From assembly GCA_037305845.1 (NCBI GenBank), contig CP147778.1, positions 2,368,001 to 2,432,000 on the forward strand: 64,000 nt of DNA, given 5' to 3'. Origin of the DNA: Candidatus Freyarchaeum deiterrae. Its GTDB lineage: Archaea > Asgardarchaeota > Jordiarchaeia > Jordiarchaeales > Jordiarchaeaceae. Shown here one piece after another: positions 11,441 to 15,016 of this stretch. The notes below the pieces were generated by a model. The model saw only the letters and a program-made list of their open reading frames with translations, was not told the origin of the DNA and ran no database searches. The number at the start of each line of letters is the position of its first letter. The stretch's first letter is position 1. Both the position numbers and the translations under genes were made by a program.

Positions 11441-14400
11441 TTAGGCTTCTGGGACTACCGTTACCTCGACTAATGCGTTCAGTAACAATTTATTCGGTAT
11501 TTCCTGAGGCTCGTCTGGATTCTCTAAATCAAAAATCATTGTACCAAGAACGTATGTCTTCAACTCTTCCGGACGTTGAATCAACCACGTTAAAGGCTGT
11601 TCTAATGGTCTTACTGGTTTTCCCTTGAGTAGAGTTAAGTTCCTTTTTTCCTGTACAAGTACTGTTTTCGTATTTTTTTCCAAAATTGCAAAAACTACTC
11701 TGGCATTTACATCGTAGTCGACGAAACTTTGAACTATAGGAGTGATGCTAAATTTCATTGTTTCCCCATGAAACATTACATACTCAGCTAATGGGGGTTT
11801 ACTGCTATAACCAACTCTGAATCTCGGCTTATCTGAAACGATTTTTACTCTTTTCTTGTTTACCCAACCCGCTATGCCATTCTGACTTAGTTCAAGATTT
11901 ATGACGCATTCCTTATCTGTGACGTAGGTGGGTATTTTGGCACCCACTTGTGCCAATAATGTTTCCTTGGGATTAAGGTTTATTGGTATATTCTCTCTGA
12001 AAATTGGCTGTCCTTCTATCTCTCCCTCGAAATTTAGGTCGAAAGCGGTTTTGTCATCAAGTCTATTCGCTATTTGTACCATGAGAGTGTATACAGAACC
12101 CGGGTTGAAATGATCGGGCATATTCTGGAAAGTTACTTCTACCGCTCTTCCCAGATTTATTACGGGAACTTCTTGGGTGGATTCCAAGATTGGTTTTCCG
12201 CTCTTGATAAGTGTAGCCTTCAGGAGGAAGTGTTCGGTACCTTGAGGGATAACTATAGGTTTTATTTCAATGAGAGTTTCTGATTTAGCATTATCCATGT
12301 TTTTGGTGGCGATGGTTTGGGGTTGGTCATTTATCAGGGCTTCAACTTTGAGAACGAGAGGTTTTTCGCCTTCGCTAATTTTTCCTATTTTTAGTCTTCC
12401 AGTAACTGGCATATTTACATAAGCTCTCTCAGGAACATCCATCCATTCTACTTCTATCGGGGGACCTTTAACCAGTTTAAACTTTTGAGGGAACTCCTCA
12501 TATTCAACAAGGCTTCCTCCCTGATTTAGTTCCACGGCGATCTTCATTGCATCATTACGAAGATTTTTTAGTACATCCTCCGTTGTTTTCCACTTGGTTG
12601 TTATTACTGAAATTTTTTTAGGATCAACGGTCTCTTCCTTGAGCACCATCTCAAAATCTTGTCTACTTGTAGATTTTAATTTAACAATCACCCCGAGCGG
12701 ATCCGCTGAGGGTATTCTCGTTGCGTCCACTGAAAAACTGATTTCTAATGGTTCGCCGATGTGATAAGTTTTGTTTGGTTCTTTCTTCAATTCAAGAGAA
12801 ATATCAGGTGCTTGGAAGAAAACTCTAAACGCGGCAGACTTGCTTTCGGAAATAATCTTTCCATCCCTATCCATAACTTGTGCGACTACGGAACACTGAG
12901 GACTAAGCAAAGATGATTTAGCCATCCTGGGATGCAGAACTAAGGGTGGAATTTCATTCCAGCTACCTTCTTGCTGTGCTTCTAGTGCGTCCTTAGCCCA
13001 CTGAAGTTTAGCCATTTCCTCAGACATAGCGACGAAGAGTTCTTGTTCTTTTGCACGCATACGTTGCAACTTTGCTCCCCAAGGTTGTCCCTGGCTTACG
13101 ATTGAATAGAGTTCTTCGTTCCGGTCGGAATCCACTATTGATACTTTTAATGTAAGATTCATATCCACGGGTGTAGCGTTCTCCACAAAGACCGCGTAGG
13201 GAACTTCAGTTGCACCAGTGACTATAACGCCGTCAACTTGTGCAATAAGATTACTCTTGCATGTGACATGGTAAGCTTGTATCGCGGTTCTCTCAACCGA
13301 AATTGTTTCAGTTCCAACTTTTAGTTCGTTTTTCAGCATGTACTGCGGGATACCAATTTGTGTATCGAACTGAATTTCTCCTACTCTCTTCTCTGAGGGT
13401 TCTAGTCTATCTACCACGAAAGTTTCACTACGCCTCTCTTGATTCAAACTGTCGTAGACCTTACTTTCAATCAATATATTCTCCAATGGAGTCTTACCCT
13501 TGTTCTCCAAGAATACCTTGCATATTACAGGTTGGCCCTCAAACACTATCTCAGGTTCAACATGTATCTCCATGCTAGCAGTCACTAGAGTTAATTCTTG
13601 TAGATTGGGTGTGCCAAGAACGGGATCGCTCCAAACATTAGCGCAGCTTTGATCGGCAATAATCTGTAATTCACGGGCTACCCGTTCCATGTTCTGAGAA
13701 AGTTCGGCGAATTTTAGCAACTGATAGTCAGCAGTAGTGAGTGGTGGAGAAAAACTACCCGCCAAATCACCGTAAACCGTTAACAGTATGGGTTTAAGAT
13801 ACTCTGAACGCAGTACGCCTATTTCCTGTAGTTCGTCCTTTAAGTAGAGTATCATGTTTTTGACTGCGTCGTGCATTCTTTTCAGAAATTCCTGCCCGCC
13901 GTCCCCTGACTCAAAATAATAGAATTTAGAAAACTCGGGATACTTTTTAATAAAATCATCCAGATCCTTTTGTTTGAAAAAGGGACCCATAAGTCCCCAT
14001 CTTATGGATGATCTGCGATTCTTCACCAGAGACTCTGAGTCTATCTCAGGAATTTTTTGTCGACTCTCATACATTTTCTTCGCTTTCAAAGCTAAAGCTT
14101 GAATCAGGGCTGCTAGGGAAATTCTTCTAATAACACTTATCTGAGAGTCGAAGACCCGTATTTCCACAGTTCCATATGCAGTATAGGGATACATATCACA
14201 CATACGAGCGGGGATACGGTTAACTACGCTTTCAAACTTCTTTTCATCATAATCCTCAACATAAGGAATATAATGCTGAGCATCATCCGGACCCAACTGT
14301 TTAATATTTTTCTCCAATCTAATGCTCCTAACACATCCGGGAGCCAGCAGCTTTCCATCCTTTATTTCAACAATATCAGTTGGTTTTCCATCAACAAAAG

Positions 14401-15016
14401 GCGAATTTACAGACAGCGCGATTAGATGAGGCAGAAAGGCTCTAAACATATTATAAACATAAAGCTTCAGATTCTTATCCGGAACTCCGATATGGTGGTG
14501 GTCACCGAAACTAAGTCCCTGCTGGAAGTCCATAAGAGGGTTTAAACCAGTGGTTACAACTTTAACACCGGGGGGAAGTGCATCGTGAGCAAGTTTCACG
14601 AGTGTATGCGCCCACCAAGTTAACTCCTCAAAAGTTTCAGAGGGAGGAGTCGCCACCTCTAAAATCCATGTAATGGCGGTCATGTGTGGGTCTTTTCCCA
14701 GAATTTCAACGTTTATCTGTTTTCCATCAGGCAGTTTGTAACTGCATACTAGTGTATCTCCTCTCTTTTGTTCATGTTCTACTCGTACATTTGAAATCTT
14801 TTTGTTGATGACAGCGACTATTGGGTCAGATGGTTTCTTTAAAATGTTTTTTAAGCTAGTACCTGCGTCTTCAACGATTTTACCCATAATGCTGACCATT
14901 TTCTCGCCGTCAATCCAAGCACCCTTGAGGTTTACGATCTGGATTTCCATCTCTATTCCGTGCGTGAAGGGCAACTTTATCCATTCTTGTGATTTGGCCT
15001 TAGACGACATGCTCAA
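11441..15016 (-). CDS. GCS2/YbdK-type carboxylate-amine ligase fused to multiple Ig-like beta-sandwich domains
   Basis: GIEMEIQ, LEVATPP, GDHHHIG, LIALSVNSPF and GTVEIRVFD in the first ~470 aa; the remaining ~700 aa are repeated CARDB-like beta-rich units. Confidence 0.8.
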   Translation of the reverse strand: MSMSSKAKSQEWIKLPFTHGIEMEIQIVNLKGAWIDGEKMVSIMGKIVEDAGTSLKNILKKPSDPIVAVINKKISNVRVEHEQKRGDTLVCSYKLPDGKQINVEILGKDPHMTAITWILEVATPPSETFEELTWWAHTLVKLAHDALPPGVKVVTTGLNPLMDFQQGLSFGDHHHIGVPDKNLKLYVYNMFRAFLPHLIALSVNSPFVDGKPTDIVEIKDGKLLAPGCVRSIRLEKNIKQLGPDDAQHYIPYVEDYDEKKFESVVNRIPARMCDMYPYTAYGTVEIRVFDSQISVIRRISLAALIQALALKAKKMYESRQKIPEIDSESLVKNRRSSIRWGLMGPFFKQKDLDDFIKKYPEFSKFYYFESGDGGQEFLKRMHDAVKNMILYLKDELQEIGVLRSEYLKPILLTVYGDLAGSFSPPLTTADYQLLKFAELSQNMERVARELQIIADQSCANVWSDPVLGTPNLQELTLVTASMEIHVEPEIVFEGQPVICKVFLENKGKTPLENILIESKVYDSLNQERRSETFVVDRLEPSEKRVGEIQFDTQIGIPQYMLKNELKVGTETISVERTAIQAYHVTCKSNLIAQVDGVIVTGATEVPYAVFVENATPVDMNLTLKVSIVDSDRNEELYSIVSQGQPWGAKLQRMRAKEQELFVAMSEEMAKLQWAKDALEAQQEGSWNEIPPLVLHPRMAKSSLLSPQCSVVAQVMDRDGKIISESKSAAFRVFFQAPDISLELKKEPNKTYHIGEPLEISFSVDATRIPSADPLGVIVKLKSTSRQDFEMVLKEETVDPKKISVITTKWKTTEDVLKNLRNDAMKIAVELNQGGSLVEYEEFPQKFKLVKGPPIEVEWMDVPERAYVNMPVTGRLKIGKISEGEKPLVLKVEALINDQPQTIATKNMDNAKSETLIEIKPIVIPQGTEHFLLKATLIKSGKPILESTQEVPVINLGRAVEVTFQNMPDHFNPGSVYTLMVQIANRLDDKTAFDLNFEGEIEGQPIFRENIPINLNPKETLLAQVGAKIPTYVTDKECVINLELSQNGIAGWVNKKRVKIVSDKPRFRVGYSSKPPLAEYVMFHGETMKFSITPIVQSFVDYDVNARVVFAILEKNTKTVLVQEKRNLTLLKGKPVRPLEQPLTWLIQRPEELKTYVLGTMIFDLENPDEPQEIPNKLLLNALVEVTVVPEA

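What the first reader, a model, noticed from the sequence alone, without database searches (positions are those of the whole stretch)
11441..15016. GCS2 ligase fused to ~700 aa of cytoplasmic Ig-like repeats
Ordinary YbdK/GCS2 enzymes are ~370 aa and stand alone. Here the metal/ATP motifs are retained (ExE, E in LEVATPP, HHH, TVEIR), but the usual DIRP reads DMYP. Roughly five or six beta-sandwich units follow (e.g. VFLENKGKTPLEN...LEPSE; VQIANRLD...LNPKE). There is no signal peptide or TM helix, so the Ig chain is probably an intracellular docking arm, suggesting a macromolecular substrate.
Basis: partly seen in the sequence, partly recalled or inferred. Interest (0 to 1): 0.75.

Follow-up and report, generated by a model that had tools for sequence, protein, structure and literature searches.

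The report
Asgard amide ligase with Ig-domain arm
This Asgard-archaeal gene encodes an apparently active ATP-dependent amide-bond ligase joined to six Ig-like domains inside the cell; it belongs to an undescribed, Asgard-only gene set (ligase, small partner, metal hydrolase, vWA protein) whose target is still unknown.

Summary
Window 11441-15016 (- strand) is one 1191-aa gene (probable ATG start at 15010). Residues 10-475 are a divergent YbdK/GCS2-fold carboxylate-amine ligase. Residues 480-1188 fold as six Ig-like beta-sandwich domains of the CARDB/NEW3/macroglobulin type. I found no TM helix or signal peptide.

The fusion is not an artefact: full-length relatives occur in Jordarchaeia, Thor- and Sif-type Asgards. 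In 162 family members every metal/ATP residue is invariant. The strand-5 arginine of YbdK (DIRP) is always aromatic, and a clade-specific Arg/Lys sits five residues before it.

The ligase core forms an Asgard clade far from ordinary YbdK (at least 172 versus at most 63 bits). In other lineages it carries other arms: none, basic disordered, coiled coil, membrane anchor, or a 3551-aa giant. I therefore read the Ig chain as an interchangeable tether or scaffold, not a proven substrate dock.

The ligase, an Amidohydro_2 enzyme with intact metal ligands and a vWA protein occur in the same 10 of 30 sampled Asgard families and are often adjacent. A 215-260 aa partner gene always lies directly upstream of the long form.

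The substrate, protein or small molecule, is unknown, and I found no paper on it. This scan has already reported the same module in at least 45 other genomes.

The parts
11441..15016 (-). Whole gene: ligase fused to six Ig-like domains (1191 aa from TTG; probable ATG start at 15010)
13592..14989 (-). Ligase module, residues 10-475: YbdK/GCS2-fold carboxylate-amine ligase of an Asgard-specific clade
13271..13579 (-). Ig-like domain D1, residues 480-582
12815..13267 (-). Ig-like domain D2, residues 584-734, with a low-confidence insert at 641-685 that is gapped in about half of the aligned relatives
12470..12799 (-). Ig-like domain D3, residues 740-849
12158..12454 (-). Ig-like domain D4, residues 855-953
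11840..12142 (-). Ig-like domain D5, residues 959-1059; it gave the best single-domain structural matches
11453..11821 (-). Ig-like domain D6, residues 1066-1188
15027..15818 (-). Upstream partner gene, 263 aa: an N-terminal helix plus an alpha/beta domain with IINLR and FGGG motifs. It ends 10 bp before the ligase gene. A counterpart lies directly upstream of every long-form ligase examined
15819..17096 (-). First gene of the putative operon, 425 aa, with a coiled-coil C-terminus. Homologs were seen only in Jordarchaeia loci
8351..9811 (+). Amidohydro_2 metal hydrolase, 486 aa. Its HxH, H, H and D ligands are invariant. Its family distribution matches that of the ligase
9907..11367 (+). vWA-domain protein, 486 aa, convergent with the ligase gene. 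Its family distribution matches that of the ligase
6543..7424 (-). Gelsolin-domain protein, 293 aa; a possible associate, since it lies next to the vWA gene in three Asgard families

Best explanation
The gene encodes a catalytically competent ATP-dependent carboxylate-amine (amide-bond) ligase of an Asgard-specific clade of the YbdK/GCS2 fold. By analogy with the fold, it would phosphorylate a carboxylate to an acyl-phosphate and pass the acyl group to an amine. This chemistry is inferred, not shown. In Jordarchaeia and the Thor- and Sif-type lineages the core is fused to six cytoplasmic CARDB/MG-like beta-sandwich domains. I read these as a semi-rigid tether or assembly scaffold. They would hold the enzyme in a multiprotein system: the small alpha/beta partner encoded directly upstream, an active Amidohydro_2 enzyme and a vWA protein. 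They could also position the enzyme on a large cellular structure. The target is most likely macromolecular or surface-bound, but it has not been identified.
For: Ligase fold and residues. It is homologous to YbdK. The superfamily catalytic motifs listed in PMC2588565 are kept in 162 of 162 members: GhExE, HxH, ExRxxD and the loop Arg.

Separate clade. Family members score at least 172 bits and ordinary YbdK at most 63 bits. The clade has 100% SH-aLRT support.

Ig arm. Six beta-sandwich domains appear in both models. Foldseek and VIA-align match MG, CARDB and GH2 Ig-like domains. A profile of the tail reaches DUF11/CARDB/NEW3/MG2 repeat proteins. The domains are internally homologous.

Conserved fusion. 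About 100 full-length clusters of 1137-1190 aa were found, and the arm is kept in open frames across families.

Exchangeable arms. The core also occurs bare, with Lys-rich arms, with coiled coils, with a TM anchor, and inside a 3551-aa protein with a TM segment and a long helical region.

System context. Ligase, amidohydrolase and vWA protein occur in the same 10 of 30 families and are adjacent in several of them. The hydrolase metal ligands are invariant. The upstream partner is conserved, and it recurs as the C-terminal domain of the 600-635 aa upstream gene in Loki-type loci.
Against: No substrate, tag or product was identified, and nothing here is biochemical. Amidohydro_2 enzymes mostly act on small carboxylates, so the hydrolase does not point to proteins. 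The arm is much less conserved than the core (mean top-residue frequency 0.41-0.56 against 0.71) and is dispensable in many lineages. One of the two superfamily arginine fingers is missing at its canonical position. Domain packing in the models is uncertain (pTM 0.59 and 0.39). The link between the Loki partner and orf263 is only moderate (hhalign 46%, TM 0.55).
Confidence: 0.55

Rival explanations
1. Writer of a reversible protein modification. The ligase attaches an amino acid or peptide through an amide or isopeptide bond to a protein, the Ig arm docks the substrate, the amidohydrolase erases the mark and the vWA MIDAS site reads it. This is the first reader's view, analogous to PafA/Dop or to TTL/TTLL with their carboxypeptidases.
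For: PafA shows that this fold can ligate onto proteins (PMC2588565). The three genes are inherited together. Relative to YbdK, the core lacks about 22 residues between core strands 3 and 4 and has a roughly 70-residue insert, which could open the site. Arms and anchors suggest a localised enzyme. A gelsolin-domain gene sits beside the vWA gene in three families.
Against: No Pup-like or other tag gene was seen. There was no Pup_ligase Pfam match at E up to 1. Amidohydro_2 enzymes are not typical isopeptidases. The arm is absent from many lineages that keep the triad.
Confidence: 0.3
2. Small-molecule pathway enzyme, for example gamma-glutamylation of an amine or synthesis of a dipeptide-like metabolite. 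It would work in series with the amidohydrolase, as in FluG or SCO6961/6962. The Ig arm would serve only for oligomerisation or localisation.
For: Recurrent pairs of an amidohydrolase with a GS-like ligase are known (PMC6478659). The ligase and amidohydrolase genes are directly adjacent in Loki-type loci. The closest characterised relatives, YbdK and GCL, use free amino acids. Armless forms exist.
Against: The ligase is a GCS2 type, not the GS-I type of FluG. The hydrolase is only remotely like any solved enzyme. The vWA partner, a fused amidohydrolase-vWA paralog, and the TM, coiled-coil and basic arms are unusual for a metabolic enzyme.
Confidence: 0.25
3. Pseudoenzyme or pure scaffold. The loss of the strand-5 arginine would have inactivated the ligase, leaving the protein as a structural Ig-array protein.
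For: The canonical Arg of DIRP is never present. NCBIfam scores are far below the family cut-offs.
Against: All metal and ATP ligands and the second Arg are 100% conserved over 162 sequences spanning several classes. A new Arg/Lys at position 271 is kept in all 162. The core is the most conserved part of the protein.
Confidence: 0.05

Closest known systems
YbdK / GCS2 carboxylate-amine ligases (Pfam PF04107; E. coli YbdK 1r8g, Salmonella 1tt4)
   Same: Same fold and catalytic motifs: GhExE, HxH, ExRxxD and the loop Arg. Sequence matches have E 1e-11 to 1e-23.
   Different: YbdK is about 370 aa and stands alone. The Asgard core is about 465 aa, with a roughly 70-aa insert, a roughly 22-aa deletion between strands 3 and 4, and DxYP in place of DIRP. 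It scores below every NCBIfam cut-off. It carries arms and has fixed partner genes.
PafA / Dop of pupylation (Pup ligase family)
   Same: Same superfamily. They are the precedent for this fold ligating a glutamate carboxylate onto protein lysines, paired with an enzyme that removes the mark (PMC2588565).
   Different: No Pup_ligase match was found. No Pup-like gene or proteasome linkage was seen. The hydrolase here is a TIM-barrel Amidohydro_2, not a PafA paralog.
FluG-type pairs or fusions of an amidohydrolase with a GS-like gamma-glutamyl ligase (PMC6478659)
   Same: [quoted passage not shown]
   Different: The FluG ligase is GS-I-like, not GCS2-like. FluG has no vWA partner and no Ig arm.
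Macroglobulin-domain arrays (alpha-2-macroglobulin, complement C3/C4/C5, CD109, ECAM) and CARDB/DUF11/NEW3 repeat proteins
   Same: A chain of beta-sandwich domains of the same type. These were the best Foldseek hits (E 1e-18 to 1e-14) and single domains reached Z 10-14.
   Different: Those proteins are secreted or surface-exposed. Here the chain is cytoplasmic, has no CGEQ thioester motif, and is attached to an enzyme. Whole-chain TM-scores are only 0.1-0.2.

Membership tests
Carboxylate-amine ligase superfamily (GS fold), features as listed in PMC2588565 | GhExE / Ex[EH] on core strand 1 | tested here: met
   G20-I-E22-M-E24. The three residues are the same in every sequence that has a residue there (157, 158 and 161 of 162; the rest are alignment gaps).
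Carboxylate-amine ligase superfamily (GS fold), features as listed in PMC2588565 | [HD]x[NH] on core strand 4 | tested here: met
   H173-H-H175; H173 and H175 are present in 162/162.
Carboxylate-amine ligase superfamily (GS fold), features as listed in PMC2588565 | Ex[RK]xxD on core strand 6 | tested here: met
   E285-I-R287-V-F-D290, all three present in 162/162.
Carboxylate-amine ligase superfamily (GS fold), features as listed in PMC2588565 | Arginine in the long loop before strand 5 | tested here: met
   R233 (S-x-R) is invariant in the clade and shared with YbdK.
Carboxylate-amine ligase superfamily (GS fold), features as listed in PMC2588565 | Arginine on core strand 5 (the R of YbdK DIRP) | tested here: not met
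   Position 276 is Y127/F30/W2/T2/N1 and never R. Position 271 is R155/K7, a possible relocated finger.
Pfam GCS2 (PF04107) | Score above the gathering threshold | tested here: met
   33.4 bits against 21, but only residues 165-213 are matched.
YbdK subfamily / equivalogs (NCBIfam TIGR02050, NF010039-45) | Score above the curated cut-off | tested here: not met
   Best score is 84 bits against a cut-off of 176.4; the other models score 39-76 against cut-offs of 332-437.
YbdK subfamily / equivalogs | Gamma-glutamyl:cysteine ligase activity | not testable with these tools
   This needs an enzyme assay.
Pup ligase / depupylase (PafA, Dop) | Match to the Pup_ligase family model | tested here: not met
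   No Pfam family other than GCS2 matched the N-terminal half at E up to 1.
Pup ligase / depupylase (PafA, Dop) | Small disordered tag protein ending in Gln or Glu encoded nearby | tested here: inconclusive
   ORFs of 50 aa or more were clustered across 13 loci, and no conserved small ORF appeared beside the ligase. Shorter ORFs were not examined.
Alpha-2-macroglobulin / complement thioester proteins | Array of MG-type beta-sandwich domains | tested here: met
   Foldseek top hits at E 1e-18 to 1e-14. ECAM MG7 gave Z 12.1 and C4/C5 MG domains Z 10-11.
Alpha-2-macroglobulin / complement thioester proteins | Thioester domain with the CGEQ motif | tested here: not met
   There is no CGEQ in the translation and no A2M or TED Pfam hit.
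CARDB / DUF11 / NEW3 Ig-like domains (E-set) | Match to the family models | tested here: inconclusive
   No Pfam hit reached threshold. A profile of the tail reaches DUF11/CARDB/NEW3/MG2 repeat proteins at E 1e-19 to 1e-5. CARDB structure 3idu gave Z 10.2.

The most novel reading that the evidence does not exclude
The ligase is the writer of an undescribed amide or isopeptide protein modification in Asgard archaea. The system would act on cytoskeletal or membrane-associated targets. This is suggested by the gelsolin-domain gene beside the vWA gene in three families, and by the membrane-anchored and coiled-coil arm variants. It would be an archaeal counterpart, built on a different fold, of the eukaryotic tubulin and actin amino-acid ligation cycles.
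Probability: 0.25. Interest if true: 0.88.

Novelty: new variant of a known kind. Interest (0 to 1): 0.6.

Why it matters
Asgard archaea are the closest known prokaryotic relatives of eukaryotes. This enzyme system is highly conserved and limited to that phylum in these searches, apart from a few bins labelled Thermoplasmatota or Bathyarchaeia. I found no eukaryotic counterpart and no paper on it. It combines an ATP-dependent amide ligase, a metal hydrolase and a vWA protein, which makes it a candidate for a new modification or metabolite pathway. The Ig-armed form shows that the ligase is built to sit on a long tether inside the cell. That narrows the search for its target. The system is testable, because a cultured species (Lokiarchaeum ossiferum, P0157) carries the short form.

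Tried and rejected
- **The look-up of encoding contigs:** Gene context was taken from the genome search and the fetch from genomes instead.
- **Literature:** 'Asgard' with 'carboxylate-amine ligase' or with 'GCS2' gave no paper. 'Asgard' with 'glutamate-cysteine ligase' gave only a review that counts GshA-type InterPro hits.
- **PADLOC:** no hit for the ligase, hydrolase, vWA protein or the two upstream proteins, so there is no support for a known defence system.
- **Pfam on neighbours:** nothing for orf263, orf425 or the Loki 620-aa partner.
- **Atlas lead for orf263:** the FGase / pyroglutamyl-peptidase / PAC2-like fold lead was not confirmed. The alignment has no invariant catalytic-type residue, so I treat the protein as probably non-catalytic.
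- **Paralog tail:** BLASTP showed no similarity to this tail. The profile search did link its last 370 residues or so to D4-D6.
- **Thor-type 17-kb synteny:** the intervening genes (DUF92, SPFH, NfeD, Rce1-like, HEAT) are conserved only within that family, so I did not take them as part of the system.
- **Invariant Cys708 in D2:** I considered it as an acceptor residue. It lies in a beta-strand pattern typical of a buried position, so I make no claim.
- **Gelsolin phyletic profile:** it does not match the triad (246/301 genomes). Only its position next to the vWA gene is suggestive.
- **Model coordinates:** they were not available to scripts, so contacts between the arm and the active site could not be measured.
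Full report
**The gene.** Window 11441-15016 on the minus strand is a single open frame of 1191 codons from TTG. An ATG two codons downstream (15010) fits the 1189-1190 aa close homologs. The frame follows two genes on the same strand. The first is 15819-17096 (425 aa). The second is 15027-15818 (263 aa) and ends 10 bp before the ligase gene, so the three look like one operon. The frame converges on a vWA gene (9907-11367), which follows an Amidohydro_2 gene (8351-9811). The genome is a complete 3.58-Mb Asgard genome. The nearest named homologs are Jordarchaeaceae, Jordarchaeum and Freyarchaeota.

**N-terminal ligase.**
- Pfam GCS2 is passed at 33.4 bits against a cut-off of 21, over residues 165-213 only.
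- NCBIfam YbdK-type models match at E down to 1e-23, but far below their cut-offs (84 against 176 bits).
- phmmer finds the two solved YbdK proteins, 1tt4 and 1r8g, at E 3e-12 and 1e-11. The strand-1 GIExE also aligns.
[quoted passage not shown] The protein has GhExE (G20, E22, E24), HxH (H173, H175), ExRxxD (E285, R287, D290) and the loop arginine (R233).
- In 162 relatives with a complete core these residues are fully conserved, apart from a few alignment gaps at positions 20-24.
- The exception is the strand-5 arginine. YbdK WDIRP reads DMYP here. That position is Tyr, Phe or Trp in 159 of 162 and never Arg. Position 271, five residues before it, is Arg/Lys in all 162.
- Relative to YbdK the core has a roughly 70-residue insert after strand 1 and lacks about 22 residues between core strands 3 and 4.
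- The enzyme therefore looks active but remodelled. It is not a YbdK equivalog.

**A separate Asgard clade.** A search with the core alone gave a sharp gap. Family members score at least 172 bits and ordinary 360-395 aa YbdK proteins score at most 63 bits. Named members come from Thor-, Sif-, Loki- (including Lokiarchaeum ossiferum), Hel-, Hod-, Heimdall- and Jord-archaea. A few bins are labelled Thermoplasmatota or Bathyarchaeia. A quick maximum-likelihood tree separates the clade from YbdK with 100% SH-aLRT support. It resolves six subclades on an unresolved backbone. No eukaryotic relative appeared.

**The C-terminal chain.**
- AlphaFold models of the whole protein (37-sequence alignment, pLDDT 80.7) and of the tail alone (pLDDT 77.6) both give an all-beta region.
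- The region divides into six sandwich domains: D1 480-582, D2 584-734, D3 740-849, D4 855-953, D5 959-1059 and D6 1066-1188.
- D2 carries a low-confidence insert at 641-685 that is gapped in about half of the aligned relatives.
- Foldseek ranks macroglobulin-domain arrays first (complement C3/C4/C5, A2M, CD109, TEP1, ECAM) at E 1e-18 to 1e-14. TM-scores are only 0.1-0.2, as expected for chains with different domain angles.
- VIA-align against 48,161 chains matches single domains at Z 10-14 with rmsd about 2 A over about 100 residues. The matches are Ig-like domains of GH2/GH66 enzymes, ECAM MG7, C4/C5 MG domains, CARDB 3idu, arrestin N-lobes and transglutaminase barrels.
- A profile of the tail was searched against 1.8 billion representatives. 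At E below 1e-30 it found only this family.
- More weakly (E 1e-19 to 1e-5) it found giant DUF11/DUF7507/CARDB/NEW3/MG2 repeat proteins.
- D3, D4 and D5 are mutually homologous (hhalign 79-92%). D1 relates to D2 and D5 (65% and 51%).
- There is no CGEQ thioester motif.
- No 19-residue window exceeds Kyte-Doolittle 1.42 and the N-terminus is hydrophilic. With an ATP-dependent enzyme attached, the chain is cytoplasmic.

**The fusion is real but not universal.** About 100 clusters of 1137-1190 aa cover 85-100% of the query. In 301 sampled Asgard genomes the long form lies in open frames of about 1140-1190 aa in the Jord and Thor-type families. Other lineages carry the same core in other forms:
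- with no arm (about 495 aa, Hel and Heimdall types);
- with a 100-214 aa Lys-rich disordered N-terminus (Loki type, P0147);
- with a roughly 250-aa helical N-terminus (P0134, P0160);
- with a TM helix plus poly-Arg before the core and one Ig domain after it (P0174);
- at the end of a 3551-aa protein with N-terminal TM segments and about 2700 aa of Ala/Glu/Leu-rich helix (P0225).

This genome also has a paralog of about 1400 aa (40% identical core). Its tail shares only D4-D6. The core is much better conserved than the arm (0.71 against 0.41-0.56 mean top-residue frequency). I therefore read the arm as an exchangeable tether or scaffold.

**Context.**
- tblastn of the window genes against 20 loci shows the amidohydrolase directly after the ligase in Loki-type loci.
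- The order is amidohydrolase, vWA, ligase in Jordarchaeia and one other family. All are within 7 kb in a further family, and within 6-12 kb in Thor-type genomes.
- Phylum-wide searches place the strong ligase matches (E 1e-23 or better), the amidohydrolase (E below 1e-30) and the vWA protein (E below 1e-30) in the same 10 of 30 families. None was found in the other 20, for example 0/29, 0/19 and 0/11. These counts concern the sampled genomes, and related genomes are not independent.
- The hydrolase keeps its HxH, H, H and D ligands.
- A 215-260 aa protein with IINLR and FGGG motifs lies directly upstream of every long-form ligase examined.
- In Loki-type loci the upstream gene is 600-635 aa. 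Its C-terminal domain matches that small protein moderately: hhalign 46% at E 2e-4, and an Atlas structural hit of TM 0.55 to a 620-aa Promethearchaeota cluster.
- The N-terminus of that Loki gene is weakly CARDB-like.
- No PADLOC family matches.

**Function.** The chemistry (acyl-phosphate, then amide) is inferred from the fold. Three observations argue for a localised enzyme embedded in a complex: the tethers and anchors, the vWA partner, and a fused amidohydrolase-vWA paralog (880-890 aa in Thor-type loci). Two observations keep a small-molecule pathway open. Amidohydro_2 enzymes usually act on small molecules. FluG-type pairs of an amidohydrolase with a ligase are a known precedent (PMC6478659). 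A pseudoenzyme is unlikely, given the invariant catalytic residues.

**Prior work.** I found no paper describing the family. Earlier reports of this scan describe the same ligase-hydrolase-vWA module in at least 45 other genomes. My results agree with them. They add the six-domain anatomy of the arm, the catalogue of arm variants, the fixed Arg-to-aromatic change and the positional link between gelsolin and vWA genes.

Noticed in passing
window 6543-7424 (-); L029 12778-13749; L025 18111-18932: A gelsolin-domain protein matches solved Asgard gelsolins (7whg at E 1e-11, 7c2f). In Loki-type family f9 (dozens of genomes), in family f23 and in this Jordarchaeum genus it lies within about 1.5-3 kb of the vWA partner gene. 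In f9 and f23 a roadblock/LC7 gene sits between them. Its own phyletic spread is much wider than the triad (246/301 genomes).
   Followed up: partly
L017 4962-7379 (+) and L030 12060-14444 (-): A protein of about 800 aa with a C-terminal EAP30/Vps36 (ESCRT-II-like) domain lies two genes upstream of the long-form ligase in two different Asgard families.
   Followed up: no
P0225 (3551 aa, JGI metagenome) and P0174 (830 aa): Membrane-anchored versions of the ligase. P0225 has N-terminal TM segments, about 2700 aa of Ala/Glu/Leu-rich helix, then the ligase core and two Ig domains. P0174 has a TM helix followed by a poly-Arg stretch, then the core and one Ig domain.
   Followed up: partly
G000 contig 1, 2913500-2933000 (locus L032), about 490 kb from the window: A second complete set in the same genome: an amidohydrolase (508 aa), a vWA protein (463 aa) and a paralogous ligase of about 1400 aa whose long tail includes a Pro/Lys-rich stretch.
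   Followed up: partly
vWA orthologs of genus g47 (G229, G151, G250, G169, G286, G178): Six genomes of one Thor-type genus show a single in-frame TAG inside the vWA gene. This could be a conserved readthrough or pyrrolysine codon, or a shared pseudogene.
   Followed up: no
L037-L041 (Thor-type loci): A 17-kb synteny block is conserved within that family: ABC ATPase, two small proteins, ligase, DUF92, a predicted membrane protein (weak ECF-transporter-like hit), SPFH, NfeD, Rce1-like, HEAT-repeat, vWA, amidohydrolase, and in two of the five loci an 880-890 aa amidohydrolase-vWA fusion with no Pfam hit.
   Followed up: partly
window 20301-22664 (+): A KaiC-like ATPase, a KaiC-Arf/Ras-type GTPase fusion and a roadblock/LC7 protein lie in a row. 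Relatives of the GTPase fusion and of roadblock recur near the ligase loci of other families.
   Followed up: no
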